From IMG/VR virus record IMGVR_UViG_2721755712_000002: a DNA stretch of 10,019 nt. The stretch is one strand, 5' to 3'. Numbering within the stretch: position 1 is the stretch's first letter; each line of letters opens with the position of its first letter. The notes under the pieces were generated by a model, which worked only from the letters and a program-made list of their open reading frames with translations, made no database searches and was not told the origin of the DNA. The position numbers and the translations under genes are program-made. The stretch is from a virus (taxonomy: Duplodnaviria; Heunggongvirae; Uroviricota; Caudoviricetes). Shown here one piece after another: positions 111 to 10,019 of the stretch.

Positions 111-434
111 TTACTGTCTCTGGCAATCTTTATCGCGATAACGCCTGAAGTACCCTCTCGCTTCCTCATCCATACCAAGAGCCGAATGAGTCCGCTTACC
201 AACATCCATCAATCCACTGAGAACGCCATACATAAAACGGTCGAAACCGTTAGCATTATTAACAACATTTTCCTGTCTGGAATTTTCCTCTGGTGAAACC
301 AAAGGTGATTGCTGCTGTTCTGGTTGGGCATCAAGCACAAAACCATCAGGAAGCTGTGAACTATCAGGAAACTGTGAGTTATCAGGTTGTTCATCGAGCA
401 CAAAACCTTCCGGTAAGATTACATTTGCTGCCAT
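111..434 (-). CDS. Hypothetical protein (107 aa) with an internal tandem peptide repeat
   Basis: ATG 434 with AGGAA upstream, overlapping the 3' end of the 447-aa gene by 16 nt. Repeat PEGFVLDEQPDNSQ / PDGFVLDAQPEQQQ, acidic and Gln-rich. Stop TAA at 111. Confidence 0.45.
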   Translation of the reverse strand: MAANVILPEGFVLDEQPDNSQFPDSSQLPDGFVLDAQPEQQQSPLVSPEENSRQENVVNNANGFDRFMYGVLSGLMDVGKRTHSALGMDEEARGYFRRYRDKDCQRQ

Positions 435-1762
435 TTTCCGTTCCTGTAAATGATTTTCTGACCAGTTTTAGGGTTGGTTGCCGTTGCGCCTTCTGATATT
501 CCTCCGGTTGCCGCTTTTGCCTGTCCAGTGCCAGCCTGTGATGTAGGCTGCCCGGAAACATCGTCAAATAGCTTCGCTTTCCTTCTTTCAAGGCTTTTTC
601 TTAGCCCCTGAGGAATAGTTTCTCCATATGTATCGAGATACTCGTCAACCTGCTGGTTAAACTGCTGCCCCATAGCATTGGCGTTGATTTTTGCGGCGTT
701 AACAATGTTATCCTTTGCCTCCTGCGACAGGCCGTTTCCAGCATTAAGCTGGTCTATGTATCCTTTGATTTGTCCCCATATGCCATCAGACCGCATTACC
801 TGAACCTGTTCGCCTTCACGAACGACTGACTGCGGGTCAAGAGATTTCATGTAGTTGAAGATAATCCCAAGTTGGGCAGCGCCAGTATTTACCTTGCTAA
901 GGGCTTGCAGAGAGTTTGCCGCCGCTCTGACAGAGTTATAATTTTTGCCAAAATTGGTAATGTCAGAATTTAATCCCTTAATTAAGTCTGCTGACGGCTT
1001 ACCTTTTTGCCCCAGCTCCATTAGCTTCAATCCCATCTCATCTGAGTGAATTTGTGCTCGCTGAGCCCTGTCTAGTTGAGCGTTCTGGATATTTGCCCAT
1101 CCTCTCGCGTTCTCCATGTCAGCCTGACGCATACTTTCATCCAGTCGCCCTTGCTCAAGTCGACGACCTTCCATTTGATCTTTGATATCGAAATACTTCT
1201 CATGACCGAGAGAAAACAGCGCCAGATTACCTGCGAAATGCTGGAAGCCCTGCGGGTCATTAACCTGCATTTCAGCAATAGTTTCTGGAGGGATACCTAA
1301 ACGACGCATCTCCTGCTCATTATCCATCATGAACCTGCCAAATGCGCCCTGACCAAGCGATGAGGCTACCTGTGCTTTGAGCGCCAGATTGCCATAATCA
1401 TCCCTTTGAGCATCATCGACATAACTCATCCCTTTACGGACTTCCTCAAACTCTTCTGGGAATGCTGTAATAAGATTACGCATCTGCTCCCTGTCACCGG
1501 ACGCATAAGCATCTGCATAACCTTTCTGGAATGCCGCTTTACGTTCCTGCTGTTGCTGCTGCTTATAAATGTCAGCAACTCCAGCCAGACCACGAAGACC
1601 TGTCAGAGCAACGTTATTTGCACCTGAGCGAGCCAGTTCATTGTTTTCGCGGATCAGACCAAGCGTTGCGTTAATGTCGCTTGCCTTTGGCGCATTCTCA
1701 TTTTGCGCACCGATGCCAGCCAGAAAACCACCAGAATTAATACCCTGTTGCCACGTAGCCAT
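419..1762 (-). CDS. Hypothetical protein (447 aa from ATG 1762; 451 aa if GTG 1774), Q/N/G/A-rich, possibly structural or coiled-coil
   Basis: Long ORF with consistent codon usage. ATG 1762 lies 5 nt after the upstream stop; GTG 1774 is the alternative. Contains a QQQQQ run and Gly/Asn-rich segments. No Shine-Dalgarno clearly visible. No catalytic motif recognised. Confidence 0.75.
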   Translation of the reverse strand: MATWQQGINSGGFLAGIGAQNENAPKASDINATLGLIRENNELARSGANNVALTGLRGLAGVADIYKQQQQQERKAAFQKGYADAYASGDREQMRNLITAFPEEFEEVRKGMSYVDDAQRDDYGNLALKAQVASSLGQGAFGRFMMDNEQEMRRLGIPPETIAEMQVNDPQGFQHFAGNLALFSLGHEKYFDIKDQMEGRRLEQGRLDESMRQADMENARGWANIQNAQLDRAQRAQIHSDEMGLKLMELGQKGKPSADLIKGLNSDITNFGKNYNSVRAAANSLQALSKVNTGAAQLGIIFNYMKSLDPQSVVREGEQVQVMRSDGIWGQIKGYIDQLNAGNGLSQEAKDNIVNAAKINANAMGQQFNQQVDEYLDTYGETIPQGLRKSLERRKAKLFDDVSGQPTSQAGTGQAKAATGGISEGATATNPKTGQKIIYRNGKWQQM

Positions 1763-1766
1763 AAAT

Positions 1767-1940
1767 TTACCCACGTCCAGTTAAAGTGTAAGCCAGCGCC
1801 TTATCCATTAATCCCCGAGCAATTTCGTGGATCGTTGGCGCAACTCCTACCTCTGATTTTTTACGCTGCTCCTCCTGAATTTTCTTTATCGCTTCCATTT
1901 GCTTCTCACTTATCAATACTGGCTTTACTGAAATAGCCAT
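1767..1940 (-). CDS. Small protein (57 aa), possibly ribbon-helix-helix (CopG/Arc-like) DNA-binding
   Basis: ATG 1940 with AAGGGGGG Shine-Dalgarno 4 nt upstream. The 100-aa ORF-track version (to 2069) is an unsupported extension across the terminator hairpin. Predicted pattern of strand (ISVKPVLIS) then two helices; the fold is inferred only. Confidence 0.55.
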   Translation of the reverse strand: MAISVKPVLISEKQMEAIKKIQEEQRKKSEVGVAPTIHEIARGLMDKALAYTLTGRG

Positions 1941-1974
1941 AACGCCCCCCTTAGAACTGTATAAAACAACAGTC

Positions 1975-2003
1975 ATTATAGTTTCATAAAACGCAACATT
2001 CAT
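1975..2003 (-). promoter_or_regulatory. Candidate sigma70 promoter for the 57-aa/447-aa operon
   Basis: Perfect TATAAT on the minus strand (plus 1975..1980), about 35 nt upstream of ATG 1940. The -35 at 17-bp spacing (ATGAAT) is weak. Lies between the terminator and the gene start. Confidence 0.3.
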
Positions 2004-2041
2004 CATTGTGATTGCAAAATATGAAACAAATAGCACAAAAA

Positions 2042-2068
2042 AATGCCACCGTTCAGTAGCTGGTGGCA
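2042..2068 (-). terminator. Candidate rho-independent terminator for leftward (minus-strand) transcription
   Basis: On the minus strand: stem AUGCCACC / GGUGGCAU (plus 2042..2049 pairing with 2061..2068), 11-nt loop, then UUUUUU (plus A-run 2037..2042). The loop is longer than ideal. Confidence 0.45.
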
Positions 2069-2263
2069 TCGTTCTGTATGTCAGGTTTTGACAGTTTTTT
2101 TATGGACTCTAAAAACTATATTTATGGAGTCGCATTACTCTTCACGGCAGGCGCTTTCCAGTTCTGCCCTTGCTTCTGGCTCCATTGGTAATTTGATTCG
2201 CGATCAGCTATGCGGATGGTTTGCTGAACAGGCATAACAACATCTCAGAGGCTATTTTTTGAA

Positions 2264-2280
2264 CTACGAAAATTTCGTAG
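2264..2280. promoter_or_regulatory. 17-bp near-perfect palindrome CTACGAAAATTTCGTAG; candidate operator for a dimeric DNA-binding protein
   Basis: Read directly: 8-bp arms CTACGAAA / TTTCGTAG around a single central base. Located in the 600-bp non-coding region. No T-tract follows on either strand, so it is unlikely to be a terminator. Confidence 0.35.
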
Positions 2281-2435
2281 TGCTCACCTTCAAAAACGTC
2301 ACGCCCTTGTACACTGGATTTTACAAAAGTCTCGTAAAACTCTTTGCTGTTCTGGGCTATGTGCCAAACCGCAGCGAATACCTCCGTCTGCCAGATGAGC
2401 AAAACATACCTTATAAAGAAAATCGCTGTTTTTGC

Positions 2436-2539
2436 TGTACCACCTGTACCACCATGTCACAAACCCTTGTGTGGCGCGGCCTGCAGGTGGTACAGGTGGG
2501 TAAAAATGACCTCTCCCCACCTGTACAGACCTGTACCAT
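2436..2539. repeat. Iteron cluster 1: the same GGTGGTACAGGT core in both orientations, including tandem 9-mers (CTGTACCAC)x2
   Basis: Read directly: CTGTACCACCTGTACCACC at 2436..2454 (reverse orientation of the core), GGTGGTACAGGTGG at 2487..2500, CCACCTGTACAGACCTGTACCA at 2518..2539. Lies immediately downstream of the 245-aa gene stop (2544). Confidence 0.7.
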
Positions 2540-2543
2540 TTAT

Positions 2544-3281
2544 TTAATTTTTACCCATAGCAGCACATAATCCCTTTTTTGAAATATTGAAAAATGCGTT
2601 CATTCTTCCCGCTGGCTTAACCTTGTAGCCGCTTGCCACCATCGCCGCAATAAATGCTCCGTTGGGGATATAGTGCGGGTGATCACTGTGCTGGTGGTTT
2701 ATCTGGTTATATCGCTCCACTTCATGCTTCAACGTGTCAGATGTGGGGTTATCCTGCGGGAAGCTCTCAATCTGGGCATTACTCATCCCGTTGTCTCTGA
2801 TCCATCTCAGGCAGCTTTTCGCCGATACGATAAATGACGGGTTATCAAGCGGGTTTTCCCAGTCCGCATTCCGGTTGTGGAGCGCCAGTCCGTCAAGGTT
2901 AAATTGTGGGTATTCAGCGGTAATTACTGTCACTGCGTGGCGGATTTCAGTCTCGTCACAACATGGCTCATCTCCCACACCAGCAGGGTAATAATCTGAA
3001 CCACCGGGACTGATACAGCGTTTACCACTGAAAGGCCATTGCTTCGCCATTTCGGGTGTTGAGTGATTACCGTCGCTCCGTTCGCGCTGTGCCTCTGTCC
3101 ACTGGCTGGCATATTCAGTAAATGAAACTCTTTGCCCCTGGCGCATCCAGTGCGCAATCATAATTAAAGTGCGTTCCAGACTTTGGATGTCGCCAGCATT
3201 CCCGCACTGTGTAGCGAAACTTTTTAATTCTTCGCGCTCCGTTCTGGTCATTCCCTGCAGTATGCAATAGTTATTGTTCAT
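2544..3281 (-). CDS. Hypothetical protein (245 aa), Cys- and His-containing, no recognisable family
   Basis: ATG 3281 with GAGG upstream, coupled to the 76-aa gene. Segments RCISPGGSDYYPAGVGDEPCCDE and HQHSDHPH could be metal-binding. Followed directly by iteron cluster 1. Good codon usage and length. Confidence 0.7.
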   Translation of the reverse strand: MNNNYCILQGMTRTEREELKSFATQCGNAGDIQSLERTLIMIAHWMRQGQRVSFTEYASQWTEAQRERSDGNHSTPEMAKQWPFSGKRCISPGGSDYYPAGVGDEPCCDETEIRHAVTVITAEYPQFNLDGLALHNRNADWENPLDNPSFIVSAKSCLRWIRDNGMSNAQIESFPQDNPTSDTLKHEVERYNQINHQHSDHPHYIPNGAFIAAMVASGYKVKPAGRMNAFFNISKKGLCAAMGKN

Positions 3282-3501
3282 GTTTTACCTCTCTGATTTC
3301 TGCTGCCATATCTGTTGGCTCTATACAGCCGTCCCGACTTGCCACGCAGGGAATAATGATTTCAACGGTATCGCCGTCAATACACATTTCAACATTCGCC
3401 CATGCCGCAATGGGTAGCCAGTCTGAACGCCCCTCAAACCGTAGCTGCCAGCCAGAGGAAGAAGCTAACTGGCGCACTTTGTAAAATGGTGTGCTCATCA
3501 T
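3271..3501 (-). CDS. Small hypothetical protein (76 aa), first gene of a two-gene module
   Basis: ATGATG start at 3501 with GAGGGA upstream; stop TAA overlaps the next gene's start by 11 nt (ATGAACAATAA). Preceded by iteron cluster 2. Confidence 0.6.
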   Translation of the reverse strand: MMSTPFYKVRQLASSSGWQLRFEGRSDWLPIAAWANVEMCIDGDTVEIIIPCVASRDGCIEPTDMAAEIREVKHEQ

Positions 3502-3545
3502 TGGTTGTTCCCTCTCAGCCAGCCAGAAGAAATGCGTTTGTTAAT

Positions 3546-3648
3546 GGTATAGGTGGTACAGGTCTGGTATAGGTAAGATATTGACCTGTACCACTATAAC
3601 GCATTGTTTTTAATGCTGAATTAGCAAAGTGGTATAGGTGGTACAGGT
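3546..3648. repeat. Iteron cluster 2: exact 19-bp direct repeat TGGTATAGGTGGTACAGGT twice (84 bp apart), a partial copy, and an inverted copy
   Basis: Read directly: 3546..3564 and 3630..3648 are identical; TGGTATAGGT at 3566..3575; GACCTGTACCACTATA at 3583..3598 is the inverted copy. Sits between the stop of the primase-like gene (3678) and the start of the 76-aa gene (3501). Confidence 0.7.
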
Positions 3649-3677
3649 AAAAACGATCTTCTTGTAAAAAGACTATA

Positions 3678-4457
3678 TTAAAAAACATCATAACCCCCCA
3701 TACCGATCAGACGGGCAAACGCAGCCTGTAGAACTCCGACCTCTGGTAGTTCGTAGAACACGCCATTCCCTCGGTCTGGTCTTCCATGCTTCACCAGCCC
3801 CATTTGTGCAAGTGATTTACCCAGTAGTGATCTGGCAGCTGGTTCTTTAAGCTTTTCCCCACGCTCAAGCGACCACGCTACAAATCGACTAACCATATCC
3901 TTTGCAAACAAACGGACTTCGCCATTAAACGGAGGTTCATTGATTAGCTCGCCATAAAGAAACAATTCAACGCCAGACAGCCCCAGCAAGATTTCTTCAC
4001 GTAAGGCATCGGTCTGTGGCGCTCGTTGAGGGTCAAAACCTGAGAGATCCACCCCTTTAAGATGCCAAAGCAACTTTGCGGCACCGCCATCATTAAGCCA
4101 ACTGTACAGCCGATCAAAATACTCCCGGCTCTGTGCTTTTTCAGGAGATGGCTCAAGCACGAGATAGCGGCGCTCTCTTATCCCTGCCTGTAATACCTGT
4201 GTGCTGTTACTGGCAAATATCAACCGGGCAAAATTCGGCATTGGTTCAGCATCAATTCCCTTGCGCTCAAGGTTAAACGTCGGTTCGCTAATAATCGCTT
4301 CCTGAATAGCTTCTGGTACGCCATTGAGCAGTGACATAACCGCGCCAATCATTAACTTGTCTCTGTTGCTTGGGCTGGCCCCTTCAAGCCAGAACCCTAA
4401 AACAGTCTGAACCTGTTCGATGCGACATTGCGCTTCAATGAGCTGGATGTTGGTCAT
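3678..4457 (-). CDS. Primase-helicase C-terminal-like protein (259 aa); helicase motif C and arginine-finger-like segment, no Walker A in this ORF
   Basis: GGAGAG Shine-Dalgarno 6 nt upstream of ATG 4457. Segment ARLIFASNSTQVLQAGIRERRYLVLEPS resembles the motif C (hhhhS/T-N) plus Arg-finger region of SF3/P4-family primase-helicases. No GxxxxGK(S/T) P-loop is present. Product assignment is from recalled motifs only. Confidence 0.65.
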   Translation of the reverse strand: MTNIQLIEAQCRIEQVQTVLGFWLEGASPSNRDKLMIGAVMSLLNGVPEAIQEAIISEPTFNLERKGIDAEPMPNFARLIFASNSTQVLQAGIRERRYLVLEPSPEKAQSREYFDRLYSWLNDGGAAKLLWHLKGVDLSGFDPQRAPQTDALREEILLGLSGVELFLYGELINEPPFNGEVRLFAKDMVSRFVAWSLERGEKLKEPAARSLLGKSLAQMGLVKHGRPDRGNGVFYELPEVGVLQAAFARLIGMGGYDVF

Positions 4458-5306: not shown

Positions 5307-5968
5307 GTGGCAGCCTCCTTCAGATAGCAGGTTACGCTACCACCGGAAACGCCAATTTCGCTGGTGGTAGCCCAGACAGGGTTGGCGTAACCGGCTCTGA
5401 AGGATACCGGCGCTTCCGAAGAAGCCCCCGCCTGAGCCACCATTGATTGACAAAGGCGCTGGATTATACACCAACGCCCAAAAAATGGGTGAGTCAGACC
5501 TACGACATAAAAAAAGACGCTCGGCGCGTCATATGTCGCCTTCAGAATTTTTAGGACGCCAATCCCGGCACCCGTTTTATGAGGTGCCTTATAACCATAA
5601 ACCGTGTTGCCGCATAACGGCAAGCTCTTTTTTATGGACTCCGAAAACTCACTATTGGAAGAACCAGAAGCACAGTACATCGCGCTCATTTCGTTAACGT
5701 CACGCGCGTGGACGAAGGTTTTTGTGGAGTCACTACACGAGCAGAGAAAGCCATCTACGACCAGAAATTCTCTGGCATAGCCGCTGACCTTCTCAACGCT
5801 AACACCATCGACCGTAATTTCTGACATAGTTAAGGCATCCGCTCCTACCACCAGCAAATGATAAACTTTGCTTGTATCTGCTGTATTAATGTCTGACTTT
5901 GCTGTCATATTGCTGGATTTTGGCGACATACCAGCCAGTGAAAATATCTTCTTCTGGGCGGTTAGCAT
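5303..5968 (-). CDS. Hypothetical protein (about 221 codons) with no in-frame stop; the frame stays open to 4901, giving the 355-codon ORF in the track
   Basis: ATG 5968 has a GGAGG Shine-Dalgarno 7 nt upstream and overlaps the previous stop (ATGCTAA). Codon usage is good in this frame down to about 5306, then rare codons (CTA, TTA, CGA, ATA, AGG) appear while the -1 frame becomes well-coded. At the expected ATGA start/stop overlap the sequence is ATGC, so the 3' end given here is inferred. Confidence 0.55.
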
Positions 5969-6982: not shown

Positions 6983-7414
6983 TTAGGCGGCGTTAAACGC
7001 GTCCGGGTAGAGTTTCAGAATGTCGGCAATTTCCTGCTGAGAAAGTCCGTTGTGATCATTTATGTTCGCAAGATGGTTAACATGAGTGATCACTTTCAGA
7101 ACATCACCACGGCAGGAGAAACGGTAGCGAAGGTGTGTTCCGATACCATCAGGATTCTTTTCGTCGATACGCTCCAGAGTGATTCCAAGCTGGCGTTCTA
7201 ACTCTGTTGCATAGTTACGACCAGAAGACAGACGGCAGTAGCGAAGAATGTCATTTTCTGTCCATCCCTCTATACCAGTACGCAGCATATAGACTCGGGC
7301 ACGATGCTTTTTCGGTGTGCGCTTTGGTGCTTGAAGGGATTTTGTAAGGGGCGTAATATCAGATACGCGAATATCTGAATTAGCCGCCTGTAATGGGCGG
7401 TTTTTCTTTTCCAT
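6983..7414 (-). CDS. Hypothetical protein (143 aa), possibly DNA-binding; basic N-terminus
   Basis: ATG 7414..7412 overlaps the alpA stop. Lys/Arg-rich N-terminal segment (APKRTPKKHRAR), then a region that could be a winged helix. Codon usage consistent with neighbours. No family recognised. Confidence 0.65.
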   Translation of the reverse strand: MEKKNRPLQAANSDIRVSDITPLTKSLQAPKRTPKKHRARVYMLRTGIEGWTENDILRYCRLSSGRNYATELERQLGITLERIDEKNPDGIGTHLRYRFSCRGDVLKVITHVNHLANINDHNGLSQQEIADILKLYPDAFNAA

Positions 7415-7632
7415 CAGGCCACCTTCCCGCGGCGTTCTGCCAGCCAGTTATTAATTTCCACCGCATCAAACGCAGTCACGTTATCTGTTAGCTTCACTGG
7501 GCGTGGAAGAGTGCCATTTTTAACCCATCTATCAATAGTAGGCAGTGAAACACCTAGCAATTCCGGCATGCGAAAGCGACGGATGTATCCAGTTGTTGGG
7601 ATAGCTGATGATGCTGGCTTGTGTACTGTCAT
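7414..7632 (-). CDS. alpA: AlpA-family transcriptional regulator / excisionase-like DNA-binding protein (72 aa)
   Basis: Motif RMPELLGVSLPTIDRWVKNGTLPRPVKL matches the AlpA/Xis-type helix-turn-helix signature (TI-x-RW-x-K-x-G-x-P-x-P-x-KL). First gene after the AT-rich control region. Stop TGA overlaps the next ATG (TGATG). Confidence 0.8.
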   Translation of the reverse strand: MTVHKPASSAIPTTGYIRRFRMPELLGVSLPTIDRWVKNGTLPRPVKLTDNVTAFDAVEINNWLAERRGKVA

Positions 7633-8103: not shown

Positions 8104-8754
8104 TTAGTCGAGATCGTGGACAGCTAATAAAGCCCGTGAGATTTTTTCTAGGAATGTGGCTTTTGCTATTCCTTTATGGGATATCCCTTCATCCTTGATT
8201 AAGGTTTCTATGTCACGGTATATAGCTGTGCGATTAGGTTTCCCATTTTGGATGTAGGAAGATGAGCCTGATTTTTTTATCAGCAGATGTACTATCAACC
8301 CCATCATTTTCATTGTCCCGTTTTCCTCATCCTGCTTTCTATGCTGCCCACGTCCGCTGCGGTTGGTTTCTTTGATGTAGTTTACTAACTGGAGTCCTCC
8401 AAGGTTTCGGGCTTTTTCTTCCCAGCCCTTGGTGCCACGCAAATCATCAATCGCTTCTGATATTTTCTGAACAATTATTTCTGGTGTATTTGTGTCAATA
8501 AATGGGTAAGAAGCTAAGAAAATATCAAGGGCATGGCAAGGCTCATCTTTACTAGTTTTTTCACCTCTGTACACCTTGATAGCTCTGGCAAGATGAGTTC
8601 TGACAAAATCGACATATTCGAAATTTTCCTCAGGCACATCGCTAATGCGCATAGATGGGTTTAGGCCAGCCAAGGCCACAGCCATTTCATGAGGGGTAAT
8701 CGATACAGATGAACAAAGCCGTTCGATTGGCGATTTTCTCAAGATGTTGTTCAC
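8104..8754 (-). CDS. Hypothetical protein (216 aa), AT-rich cargo gene translationally coupled to the integrase; function unknown
   Basis: ORF starts at GTG 8754..8752, overlapping the integrase stop TGA (ATGTGA); alternative in-frame ATG at 8685. About 40% GC in the counted segments against about 50% for the integrase. Stop TAA at 8104. No motif I can recognise. Confidence 0.6.
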   Translation of the reverse strand: MNNILRKSPIERLCSSVSITPHEMAVALAGLNPSMRISDVPEENFEYVDFVRTHLARAIKVYRGEKTSKDEPCHALDIFLASYPFIDTNTPEIIVQKISEAIDDLRGTKGWEEKARNLGGLQLVNYIKETNRSGRGQHRKQDEENGTMKMMGLIVHLLIKKSGSSSYIQNGKPNRTAIYRDIETLIKDEGISHKGIAKATFLEKISRALLAVHDLD

Positions 8755-10019
8755 ATTTGCCTCCGGGCTTTATCGAATGGCGTTACGTTGTAGTCTTTCC
8801 CGCTTTCCAGTGCCACCAGCAGATCTGCCCACTGTGCCAGTGCTGCTTTACGCTCATCAAAATACTGATGACGGTTATAAATCCCCTCTACGCCCTTAAT
8901 GCGATGATTGAGGCATCGTTCCGCCACGACAGGATCAACACCCAATGCTGCTAAATGAGTACGTGCGGTGCGTCGGAAGTCGTGAATCGTGAAATTAGGC
9001 ACATCCGGCATTTCGGCGCGAACCTTAGCCAGTGCTACGGGTAAAGTGCTTTCCTGAATATGTGGGATCATTCTGTTTTGCATCTTCCTGGCCGGAAGCA
9101 CCCATGCGCTATTACATGAAAAGGTGTGTAGCTCTCTCAACCATTCAACGGCTGGGGAAGGTAGAGGTATATCAATAGGGTCTCCGTTTTTGCTGCGTTC
9201 TTCCGGCAAATGCCATACCGCACCATCTAAATCAAACTCTTCCCATCGTGCGGCGCATAACTCCATCTTACGAACGCATAGTGCCAGCAATAGCTTAAAT
9301 GTCAGTTCGTTCTGGCGGCTGAATCCTTTTGCGGTGCGCATAGCCTCGAATAGCCTGATAAGCTCATCGCGAGTTAGCCAACGGTCGCGGGAAACCTCTT
9401 TACCACCAGCATCAGATACTTCAAACGCTGAACAAGGGTTTATCTCCAGAGCGTGGCGTTTTATCCCATAGTCAAAGATACGGCGTGTCCAGCGTAATAC
9501 ATCTGTTGCTATCGTTGGTGCTCCTCGGTCAACGATACCTTTTAACATGTCGTCAATGTGACGTGGCTTAACGTCCTCTACCTTCATATGCCCAATGCAG
9601 GGGTTAATATCCTTATCAATTCTCCGGCGAAGGATATCGGGATGTTTCCATCTCGGAAGTATCTGTCGCTCGAAGTATTCGGCGGCCAGATCTGAAACGC
9701 GCATGGCGTTTTTCTCAGCCTCCATTTTTGCCAGTGCTTCAGCTTTTCGTTCCTGTTTTTCTGCTGCTACGTCATAGCCAAGAGCAACTCTGGCTGACAG
9801 CTCTTTTGCTGTTTCTCTGGCTTTTGATAGTGACAGTTCGGAGTAAGAGCCGATAACCATAGCCCGCTGTTTTCCTGCGAGCTTATATCGGAATCGCCAG
9901 AACGGGACTGTGTAGTTTTTGGGGTAGCAAATATAAAGGCCGTTGCCGTCTGCCTTGCCATCAAATCTGTCTCCCGCCTTTATCCATGCGCGGATCTGCA
10001 TATCTGTGAGTTTTGGCAT
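8751..10019 (-). CDS. int: Tyrosine recombinase / site-specific integrase, P4 family (422 aa)
   Basis: The ATG is the last three bases of the window. N-terminus MPKLTDMQIRAWIKAG...GNGLYICY...WRFRYKLAGKQ is typical of the P4-integrase arm-binding region. C-terminal catalytic region contains HDFRRT (His-x-x-Arg), LNH and GIYNRHQY (candidate tyrosine nucleophile). Family assignment is from recalled motifs, not a search. Confidence 0.9.
   Translation of the reverse strand: MPKLTDMQIRAWIKAGDRFDGKADGNGLYICYPKNYTVPFWRFRYKLAGKQRAMVIGSYSELSLSKARETAKELSARVALGYDVAAEKQERKAEALAKMEAEKNAMRVSDLAAEYFERQILPRWKHPDILRRRIDKDINPCIGHMKVEDVKPRHIDDMLKGIVDRGAPTIATDVLRWTRRIFDYGIKRHALEINPCSAFEVSDAGGKEVSRDRWLTRDELIRLFEAMRTAKGFSRQNELTFKLLLALCVRKMELCAARWEEFDLDGAVWHLPEERSKNGDPIDIPLPSPAVEWLRELHTFSCNSAWVLPARKMQNRMIPHIQESTLPVALAKVRAEMPDVPNFTIHDFRRTARTHLAALGVDPVVAERCLNHRIKGVEGIYNRHQYFDERKAALAQWADLLVALESGKDYNVTPFDKARRQM

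What the first reader, a model, noticed from the sequence alone, without database searches (positions are those of the whole stretch)
2436..3648. Two clusters of GGTGGTACAGGT iterons bracket a two-gene module
An exact 19-mer (TGGTATAGGTGGTACAGGT) occurs twice 84 bp apart at 3546..3648 with partial and inverted copies, and the same 12-bp core recurs in both orientations, including tandem 9-mers, at 2436..2539. The clusters sit immediately upstream of the 76-aa gene and immediately downstream of the 245-aa gene, and just downstream of a primase-helicase-like gene. That arrangement is reminiscent of the paired ori and crr iteron sets bound by the P4 alpha protein, or of the rep-ori layout in PICIs, but this motif is not one I recognise. 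It could be a replication origin for the element, or operators through which a regulator controls the enclosed module.
Basis: partly seen in the sequence, partly recalled or inferred. Interest (0 to 1): 0.7.

Follow-up and report, generated by a model that had tools for sequence, protein, structure and literature searches.

The report
Split replication origin of a phage satellite
The two repeat clusters are the two halves of the replication origin of an E. coli phage-satellite island, most likely recognised by the helicase part of its own primase-helicase; the kind of element is well known, and in this copy the enzyme is truncated, so the origin is probably a relic.

Summary
The 9-bp unit GGTAYAGGT occurs 9 times exactly, plus 2 degenerate copies. 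All copies lie in two clusters, window 2433-2540 and 3545-3648, against about 0.1 expected by chance.

The window is a PICI-type satellite island at dinD-yicC. All genes lie on the minus strand, and its primase-helicase is cut to 259 aa by a 2.4-kb deletion.

Comparison with about 40 related loci supports iterons of a bipartite origin belonging to a DUF5906-type helicase:
- The core TGGTAYAG lies directly 3' of homologues of the helicase half, from Methylococcales to Enterobacterales.
- A 44%-identical relative keeps the layout but uses CTAACCCA. A sister island with a DUF927 helicase uses GTTGGTTCA.
- Recombination swaps the helicase half and the iterons as one cassette.
- In compact relatives the two halves abut with no genes between them. 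Here the 76-aa and 245-aa genes sit between them.
- 245-aa homologues beside other helicases have other iterons, so that protein does not set the specificity.

The operator reading is not the primary role. No binding or replication was tested. This is a new member of a known kind, of moderate interest.

The parts
3545..3648 (-). Origin half B. It has six 9-bp iterons. Read on the coding (minus) strand: a tandem pair ACCTGTACC-ACCTATACC (3648-3631), a 38-bp AT-rich spacer, one inverted unit (3584-3592), then three direct units (3574-3566, 3563-3555, 3554-3546).
   Evidence: GC is 30-37% here against about 50% in the flanks. Iteron columns are invariant in 45 of 54 cases against 31 of 122 elsewhere, across relatives whose primase is 65-88% identical (p = 5e-13). 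The same layout lies directly 3' of the helicase gene in 17 or more further loci.
2433..2540 (-). Origin half A, a mirror image of part of half B. On the coding strand: GGTACAGGT (2537-2529) and TGTACAGGT (2527-2519); one opposite unit ACCTGTACC (2497-2489) fused to the GC-rich CAGGCCGCGCC; then a tandem pair GGTACAGGT-GGTACAGCA (2450-2433) followed by an A-tract.
   Evidence: The outer edges of halves A and B form a 24-nt inverted repeat, 88% complementary (I1). Half A is conserved in E. coli, Raoultella and Salmonella relatives, and it directly abuts half B in Buttiauxella, Hafnia, Rahnella, Citrobacter and Methylococcales loci.
3678..4457 (-). A 259-aa fusion remnant. The first 54 codons come from an upstream 73-aa ORF. 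They are joined to residues 577-783 of the 783-aa Zn-ribbon/Toprim/DUF5906 primase-helicase. The remnant keeps the C-terminal winged-helix domain, which is the inferred iteron binder, but lacks the primase and most of the helicase.
3271..3501 (-). A 76-aa gene lying between the origin halves. Its function is unknown. It is found only with this helicase type, in Enterobacterales.
   Evidence: No Pfam, PHROG, NCBIfam or PADLOC match. It is conserved 3' of the primase in L004-L009, L022, L030 and L036.
2544..3281 (-). A 245-aa gene lying between the origin halves. It belongs to an orphan family with a possible C-terminal winged-helix domain. It is an origin-proximal accessory gene and does not determine iteron specificity.
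2341..2432 (.). The distal edge of the exchangeable 'helicase half + origin' cassette. Homology with the sister island, which carries a different helicase, resumes at window 2340.
   Evidence: blastn of the window and L002 against L003. About 400 E. coli genomes share only window 2050-2343.

Best explanation
The two clusters are the two halves of an iteron-type replication origin belonging to the island's own primase-helicase. That enzyme has a Zn-ribbon, a Toprim primase domain, a DUF5906-type SF3 helicase and a C-terminal winged-helix domain.

Inferred mechanism:
1. The winged-helix end of the enzyme binds the 9-bp units (family consensus T-GGTAYAG-N-T).
2. The oppositely oriented sets position helicase hexamers around the AT-rich spacer of half B, which melts.
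3. The enzyme primes its own DNA synthesis, as described for P4 alpha and PICI Pri-Rep.
4. Half A acts as the second, cooperating set, like P4 crr. It normally abuts half B, but here it has been moved 1.0 kb away by the 76-aa and 245-aa genes.

In this window the enzyme has lost residues 1-576. The origin can therefore fire only if an intact enzyme is supplied in trans. Otherwise it is a recent relic, still 100% identical to the origin of intact copies.

Shown here: the repeats, their confinement to the island, their linkage and co-variation with the helicase half, the cassette exchange and the truncation. Inferred only: binding, melting and replication.
For: 1. Confinement and significance.

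2. Linkage to the helicase. A pattern scan of 185,579 species genomes gave 40 loci. In 18 of them the match lies 17-453 bp from the 3' end of a homologue of helicase-half residues 351-783, at 37-61% identity. These include Methylobacter, Methylomonas, Oceanospirillaceae, Alteromonadaceae, Buttiauxella, Hafnia, Rahnella, Moellerella, Erwinia and Xenorhabdus. Some of these loci show no similarity to the N-terminal primase part. Only the Xenorhabdus loci carry the 76/245 genes.

3. Co-variation with conserved layout:
- A 44%-identical primase (L011) has CTAACCCA units in the same arrangement.
- The sister island L003 has the same backbone and an 85%-identical primase N-terminus, but a DUF927 helicase half. 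It carries GTTGGTTCA as 3 tandem units, an AT-rich spacer and 3 inverted units, directly after the stop codon.
- Plasmid pMP1 (7.6 kb) has a DUF5906 helicase as its only replication-like gene, followed by TTCCACGTT iterons.

4. Cassette exchange. The segment swapped between L002 and L003 runs from about primase residue 341 to about 95 bp beyond half A.

5. Purifying selection on the units. Iteron columns are invariant in 45 of 54 cases, against 31 of 122 elsewhere.

6. Domain evidence. The C-terminal domain is a confident winged-helix fold.

7. Island type. The order int, alpA, primase and then the origin matches Gram-negative PICIs, in which a pri-rep-ori fragment was shown to replicate (PMC6092414).

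8. Precedent. In the P4 record, crr lies directly 3' of alpha and has tandem units 9 bp apart plus inverted units.
Against: - No experiment or binding data exist. The assignment of the winged-helix domain as the binder is inferential.
- P4's origin-binding domain (1ka8) was not among the top 60 fold matches of the C-terminal domain.
- Only the N-terminal primase third resembles P4 alpha, at 33% identity.
- One relative, L008, keeps both small genes but has no half A within 5 kb. Half A is therefore not obligatory at that position.
- In Xenorhabdus ehlersii the half next to the primase is degenerate, and an intact B-type set lies 4.9 kb upstream.
- No sigma-70 promoter, terminator or DnaA box was found that would further define the origin.
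- In this window the initiator is truncated, so the origin is probably inactive.
Confidence: 0.85

Rival explanations
1. The repeats are operators. A regulator, either the 245-aa protein with its possible winged helix or the primase C-terminal domain, binds both clusters to control transcription of the enclosed 76/245 genes and of the operon downstream of cluster A.
For: Cluster B lies 44 bp upstream of the 76-aa start codon. Cluster A lies upstream of the 100-aa / ejection-protein operon. The 245-aa model shows weak winged-helix matches. Initiator binding at an origin often also autoregulates nearby genes, so this could be a secondary role.
Against: In most lineages the two clusters abut, with no gene between them and with varied genes downstream. 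245-aa homologues at 67% and 55% identity sit next to different iterons and a different helicase. No promoter-like site was found in either cluster. There is no terminator after the primase gene, so read-through transcription is likely.
Confidence: 0.1
2. The clusters are terminal inverted repeats or recombination sites of a small mobile cassette that carries the 76-aa and 245-aa genes.
For: The outer edges of the clusters form a 24-nt inverted repeat, 88% complementary (I1). The gene pair is absent from compact relatives. In some Xenorhabdus loci only the 76-aa gene lies between the halves.
Against: The dyad symmetry exists in compact origins that have no cargo (L010, L019, L049, L052). Neither protein resembles a transposase or recombinase. 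The unit that actually recombines includes the helicase half. 245-aa homologues occur without these repeats.
Confidence: 0.03
3. The clusters are a partition (centromere-like) site or a packaging site rather than an origin.
For: Arrays of short direct and inverted repeats are also typical of parS/parC sites and of some pac sites.
Against: The island has no ParA/ParB or terminase small-subunit gene. The repeats co-vary with, and are exchanged together with, a helicase. A 7.6-kb plasmid has the same gene-plus-iteron arrangement as its only candidate replicon.
Confidence: 0.02

Closest known systems
Replication origins of Gram-negative PICIs (EcCICFT073 and relatives; Fillol-Salom et al. 2018, PMC6092414)
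   Same: The island layout is the same: int, alpA, a unidirectional operon, pri-rep, and an origin directly 3' of the initiator gene. The origin has sets of iterons flanking an AT-rich stretch. The insertion site yicC-dinD is already listed for a catalogued PICI, EcCIRM13514.
   Different: The paper's figure with the iteron sequences could not be read, and GGTACAG is not in its text or supplements. It is therefore unknown whether this iteron type was among those shown. Here the two halves are 1.0 kb apart with two genes between them. The copy in the window has a truncated initiator.
Satellite phage P4 ori and crr, bound by the alpha primase-helicase
   Same: Two separated sets of a short repeat are bound by one multidomain primase-helicase. 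One set (crr) lies directly 3' of the gene and has tandem units 9 bp apart plus inverted units. The primase N-terminus is homologous, at 33% identity over 335 aa. A 49%-identical relative of this helicase sits in a P4-like satellite, L010. The island also carries a P4/P1-type C4 RNA and an isrK-like RNA.
   Different: P4's repeat is an 8-bp unit annotated 'ori type 1 repeat', a different sequence from the one here. The helicase and origin-binding half is not detectably similar by BLAST. P4's origin-binding domain is not among the top fold matches. P4's sets are 4.5 kb apart and crr is a 120-bp duplication. Here the sets are 1.0 kb apart and mirror each other.
SaPI Pri/Rep-ori modules (Gram-positive PICIs)
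   Same: [quoted passage not shown]
   Different: The proteins are unrelated in sequence, the host lineage differs, and the SaPI origin is compact rather than split.

Membership tests
Gram-negative PICI (phage-inducible chromosomal island) | Integrase, alpA regulator and primase genes co-oriented in one direction, in a 10-20 kb island at a specific att site | tested here: met
   int 8751-10019, AlpA 7414-7632 (PF05930) and the primase remnant 3678-4457 are all on the minus strand. The island lies between dinD and yicC, a site listed for EcCIRM13514. A putative 12-bp att repeat flanks 10.4 kb.
Gram-negative PICI (phage-inducible chromosomal island) | Origin immediately 3' of pri-rep, with iteron sets flanking an AT-rich region | tested here: met
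   Cluster B starts 30 bp after the stop codon. It has a tandem pair, a 38-bp AT-rich spacer and an inverted unit.
Gram-negative PICI (phage-inducible chromosomal island) | Helper-phage-dependent induction, replication and packaging | not testable with these tools
   This needs induction experiments. The truncated primase suggests this copy cannot replicate on its own.
P4 alpha / ori-crr replicon | Initiator homologous to P4 alpha over the helicase and origin-binding domains | tested here: not met
P4 alpha / ori-crr replicon | P4 type I iterons | tested here: not met
   The unit here is GGTAYAGGT. P4's annotated type 1 repeats are 8-bp units at other positions and of a different sequence.
P4 alpha / ori-crr replicon | Two separated cis-acting iteron sets, one directly 3' of the initiator gene | tested here: met
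   Clusters B and A lie 1.0 kb apart. The sister island also has two GTTGGTTCA sets, 6.1 kb apart.
Iteron-type origin with a cognate initiator (general) | Iteron sequence co-varies with the initiator while position and layout are kept | tested here: met
   TGGTAYAG goes with DUF5906 helicases at 37-100% identity. CTAACCCA goes with a relative at 44% identity. GTTGGTTCA goes with the DUF927 helicase. TTCCACGTT goes with the pMP1 helicase.
Iteron-type origin with a cognate initiator (general) | Initiator binds the iterons, and the fragment supports replication | not testable with these tools
   This requires EMSA or footprinting and a plasmid replication assay.

The most novel reading that the evidence does not exclude
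The 76-aa and 245-aa genes are not passive passengers. They would form a previously unrecognised origin-embedded control module: their transcription through the origin, or the winged-helix-like 245-aa protein acting on the host replisome, would license or limit satellite replication. The 245-aa family would then be a portable origin-proximal replication factor that works with unrelated helicases (DUF5906 and AAA_25). In addition, the truncated 259-aa protein, which retains only the origin-binding domain, could act as a trans-dominant blocker of incoming related satellites.
Probability: 0.15. Interest if true: 0.6.

Novelty: new member of a known kind. Interest (0 to 1): 0.35.

Why it matters
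- It assigns a function to two unannotated intergenic repeat clusters that are present in about 2.4% of complete E. coli genomes.
- It defines a cognate pair, a helicase half and an iteron (T-GGTAYAG-N-T), that is conserved from methanotrophs to enterobacteria and moves between satellites as a cassette.
- That pairing is useful for annotating satellite replicons, predicting incompatibility between co-resident islands, and building orthogonal replicons.
- It also flags an orphan, origin-proximal 245-aa protein family as a candidate replication accessory factor.
- It does not reveal a new kind of system.

Tried and rejected
- **Literature search for the motif strings.** It returned only primer noise, so it was uninformative.
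- **Supplements of the PICI paper.** They contain no iteron sequences, so I could not establish whether this iteron was already drawn in its Fig. 2a.
- **The att site published for EcCIRM13514 (GAGCAGATTCAA).** It is found only once here, with one mismatch. A different 12-mer, ATTATGTACACC, flanks the island instead.
- **DnaA boxes.** None found.
- **Sigma-70 promoter and terminator scan of 1900-3800.** Nothing lay in the clusters.
- **Rfam.** No RNA family covers the clusters.
- **PADLOC.** The 76/245 genes are not a known defence system, so the idea of a defence hotspot flanked by repeats was dropped. They are also conserved rather than variable.
- **C4 RNA complementarity to the recurrent GCCAGCCAGA motif.** None found, so that link was rejected.
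- **tblastn of the primase against phage records.** Only distant hits below 34% identity, and no bona fide phage with this replicon.
- **afdb50 fold library.** It was unavailable.

Full report
**1. What the window is**

The window matches E. coli chromosomes at 100% identity, for example ETEC O6:H16 strains. It lies inside an island of about 10.4 kb inserted between dinD and yicC. A 12-bp direct repeat, ATTATGTACACC, lies on both sides of the island.

All island genes are on the minus strand. In order they are:
- integrase (8751-10019)
- a 216-aa ORF
- an AlpA-type regulator (7414-7632)
- a 143-aa ORF
- an AntA/AntB protein
- a DUF4222 protein
- an ash-family protein
- two small ORFs
- a 259-aa 'primase-helicase family protein' (3678-4457)
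- the 76-aa gene (3271-3501)
- the 245-aa gene (2544-3281)
- a 100-aa ORF
- a homologue of the P22 gp20 ejection protein

This is the published layout of Gram-negative PICIs: int, alpA and pri co-oriented, with the origin 3' of pri. The same paper lists a PICI at yicC-dinD (PMC6092414).

**2.

The 12-mer GGTGGTACAGGT with up to 2 mismatches occurs 9 times, against 0.28 expected. The 9-mer GGTACAGGT with up to 1 mismatch occurs 12 times, against 1.16 expected. Ten of those twelve copies lie in two clusters, 2433-2540 and 3545-3648.

The exact 19-mer is at 3545 and 3630, which is 85 bp start to start. In the full-length island plus flanks, the exact unit GGTAYAGGT is found only in these clusters. 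Only one stray copy lies in 24 kb of flanking chromosome.

Cluster B is present in 129 of 5426 complete E. coli genomes. It usually occurs once per genome and is never annotated.

**3. Anatomy on the coding (minus) strand**

Cluster B starts 30 bp after the primase stop codon. It consists of:
- a tandem pair ACCTGTACC-ACCTATACC
- a 38-bp AT-rich spacer
- one inverted unit
- three direct units, the last ending 44 bp before the 76-aa start codon

GC content here is 30-37%.

Cluster A starts 3 bp after the 245-aa stop codon. It consists of:
- two units in the inverted sense
- one direct unit fused to a GC-rich CAGGCCGCGCC
- an inverted tandem pair followed by an A-tract

The outer edges of the two clusters are inverted repeats of each other (I1). 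The whole region therefore has dyad symmetry.

**4. The initiator in this window is a remnant**

A 16.4-kb version of the island (L002) has a 783-aa protein with Zn-ribbon primase, Toprim and DUF5906 domains.

The window differs from L002 by two deletions:
- L002 9777-12172, with 5-bp microhomology. It fuses 54 codons of an upstream ORF to primase residues 577-783.
- L002 1699-5671.

**5. Comparative evidence that these are origin iterons of the helicase half**

(a) *Close relatives.* Primases at 88%, 72% and 69% identity (E. coli, Raoultella, Salmonella) keep the order primase, cluster B, 76-aa gene, 245-aa gene, cluster A. In the alignment of cluster B, iteron columns are invariant in 45 of 54 cases, against 31 of 122 for other columns (p = 5e-13). 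For cluster A the counts are 13 of 36 against 15 of 108 (p = 0.007).

(b) *Genome-wide pattern scan.* I scanned one genome per species for CTGTACCA-N(25-55)-TGGTAYAG-N-TGGTAYAG. This returned 40 loci. In 18 of them the match lies 17-453 bp from the 3' end of a homologue of primase residues 351-783, at 37-61% identity. The hosts include Methylobacter, Methylomonas, Oceanospirillaceae, Alteromonadaceae, Buttiauxella, Hafnia, Rahnella, Moellerella, Erwinia and Xenorhabdus. Several of these loci have no similarity to the N-terminal primase part. About four hits in unrelated phyla look like chance. From 151 copies in 17 loci, the consensus is T-GGTAYAG-N-T.

(c) *Compact origins.* In most of these lineages the B-type and A-type halves are directly adjacent, with no gene between them. 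This includes a P4-like Citrobacter satellite, L010. In Xenorhabdus innexi and X. yunnanensis only the 76-aa gene lies between the halves. In E. coli, Salmonella and Raoultella both genes do.

(d) *Co-variation.*
- A 44%-identical DUF5906 primase (L011) has the same layout built from CTAACCCA.
- The sister island L003 shares the backbone and has an 85%-identical primase N-terminus, but its helicase half is DUF927. It lacks the 76/245 genes. Directly after its stop codon it carries three tandem GTTGGTTCA units, an AT-rich spacer and three inverted units.

(e) *Cassette exchange.* The segment that differs between L002 and L003 runs from about primase residue 341 to about 95 bp beyond cluster A. 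The helicase half and both clusters therefore move as one unit.

(f) *A plasmid with the same arrangement.* The 7.6-kb Vibrio plasmid pMP1 has a DUF5906 helicase as its only replication-like gene. It is followed by 9-bp TTCCACGTT iterons in both orientations.

**6. Who binds the iterons**

Its homologues at 67% and 55% identity lie in other islands, directly after AAA_25-type helicases. The iterons there are AAAGTGGGGAG and AAGTGGGTA, and no GGTACAG units are present.

Iteron identity therefore follows the helicase, not the 245-aa protein. The 245-aa family looks like a general origin-proximal accessory gene, often followed by SSB. The 76-aa protein has no detectable relatives outside this context.

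**7. Mechanism (inferred)**

The winged-helix end of the primase-helicase binds the units. Oppositely oriented sets load hexamers around the AT-rich spacer of half B. The enzyme then primes its own synthesis.

Half A is the cooperating second set. It is analogous to P4 crr, which the P4 record places directly 3' of alpha, with tandem units 9 bp apart plus inverted units.

There is no terminator between the primase gene and cluster B, and no promoter-like site was found there. Transcription of the 76/245 genes probably reads through the origin. A secondary regulatory role for initiator binding cannot be excluded.

**8. Caveats**

- Nothing was tested biochemically.
- One relative, L008, lacks half A within 5 kb although it keeps both small genes.
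- In X. ehlersii the primase-proximal half is degenerate, and an intact B-type set lies 4.9 kb upstream.
- The placement and number of sets are therefore flexible, as with P4 ori and crr.
- Membership in the P4 alpha family fails for the helicase and origin-binding half. Membership in the Gram-negative PICI layout is met.

**9. Verdict**

The kind of element, an iteron origin 3' of a satellite's primase-helicase, is known. What I believe is new here:
- the specific iteron/helicase pair and its deep conservation
- the split of the origin by two conserved orphan genes
- the cassette-wise exchange of helicase half and origin
- the fact that the copy in this window has lost its initiator

Noticed in passing
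L002:1935-2055 (deleted in the window); L003:3200-3321 and 9341-9451: The sister island has two sets of its own iteron, GTTGGTTCA, 6.1 kb apart: one after its DUF927 helicase and one near perC. The full-length parent of the window (L002) still carries an orphan GTTGGTTCA set near perC, although its helicase is the DUF5906 type. This suggests that a helicase-plus-origin cassette replaced an older DUF927 replicon.
   Followed up: partly
window 5360-5447 (-) and 5510-5587 (-): Strong Rfam matches to C4 antisense RNA (79.9 bits) and isrK (59.9 bits) lie inside the 'ash family' gene. This is a P4/P1-type RNA immunity element in the island.
   Followed up: no
window 1715-1724, 3447-3456, 3518-3527 (exact); 1580, 3101, 7439, 9789 (1 mismatch): A second recurrent motif, GCCAGCCAGA, gives 7 hits against 0.68 expected. 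It lies next to the iteron sets in relatives, including L011, which has different iterons (near-copy GCCAGCCAAGAA), and L010. It is not complementary to the island's C4 RNA. Its function is unknown.
   Followed up: partly
window 2050-2343: This 294-bp non-coding stretch upstream of the 100-aa / ejection-protein operon is 95-98% conserved in about 400 further E. coli genomes that lack this origin. It holds a perfect palindrome, ACTACGAAA-N-TTTCGTAGT, at about 2262-2280, and a related TACGAGACTTTTGTA. It may be an operator for late or helper-dependent expression.
   Followed up: no
window 419-1774 and 111-434; L002:3793-7238: The island carries a homologue of the P22 gp20 ejection protein (PF16928, E = 2.5e-73). 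In the full-length form it also has a 705-aa neighbour that matches an uncharacterised phage protein family (phrog_6704). The window copy of that gene is cut to 107 aa by the second deletion. Satellite-encoded ejection proteins suggest interference with, or remodelling of, a P22-like helper.
   Followed up: no
L001:11705-11716 and 22077-22088 (just outside the window ends): A 12-bp direct repeat, ATTATGTACACC, flanks the island and is a candidate att core. About 0.02 such matches are expected by chance. The att sequence published for the PICI at this site (GAGCAGATTCAA) is present only once, with one mismatch.
   Followed up: partly
one search hit list (P0044, P0052 and related proteins): One primase N-terminus (Zn-ribbon plus Toprim), at 75-85% identity, is fused to at least three unrelated helicase halves: DUF5906 only, DUF927, and D5_N/Pox_D5 as in P4 alpha. 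This indicates frequent domain-level recombination inside the primase-helicase gene.
   Followed up: partly
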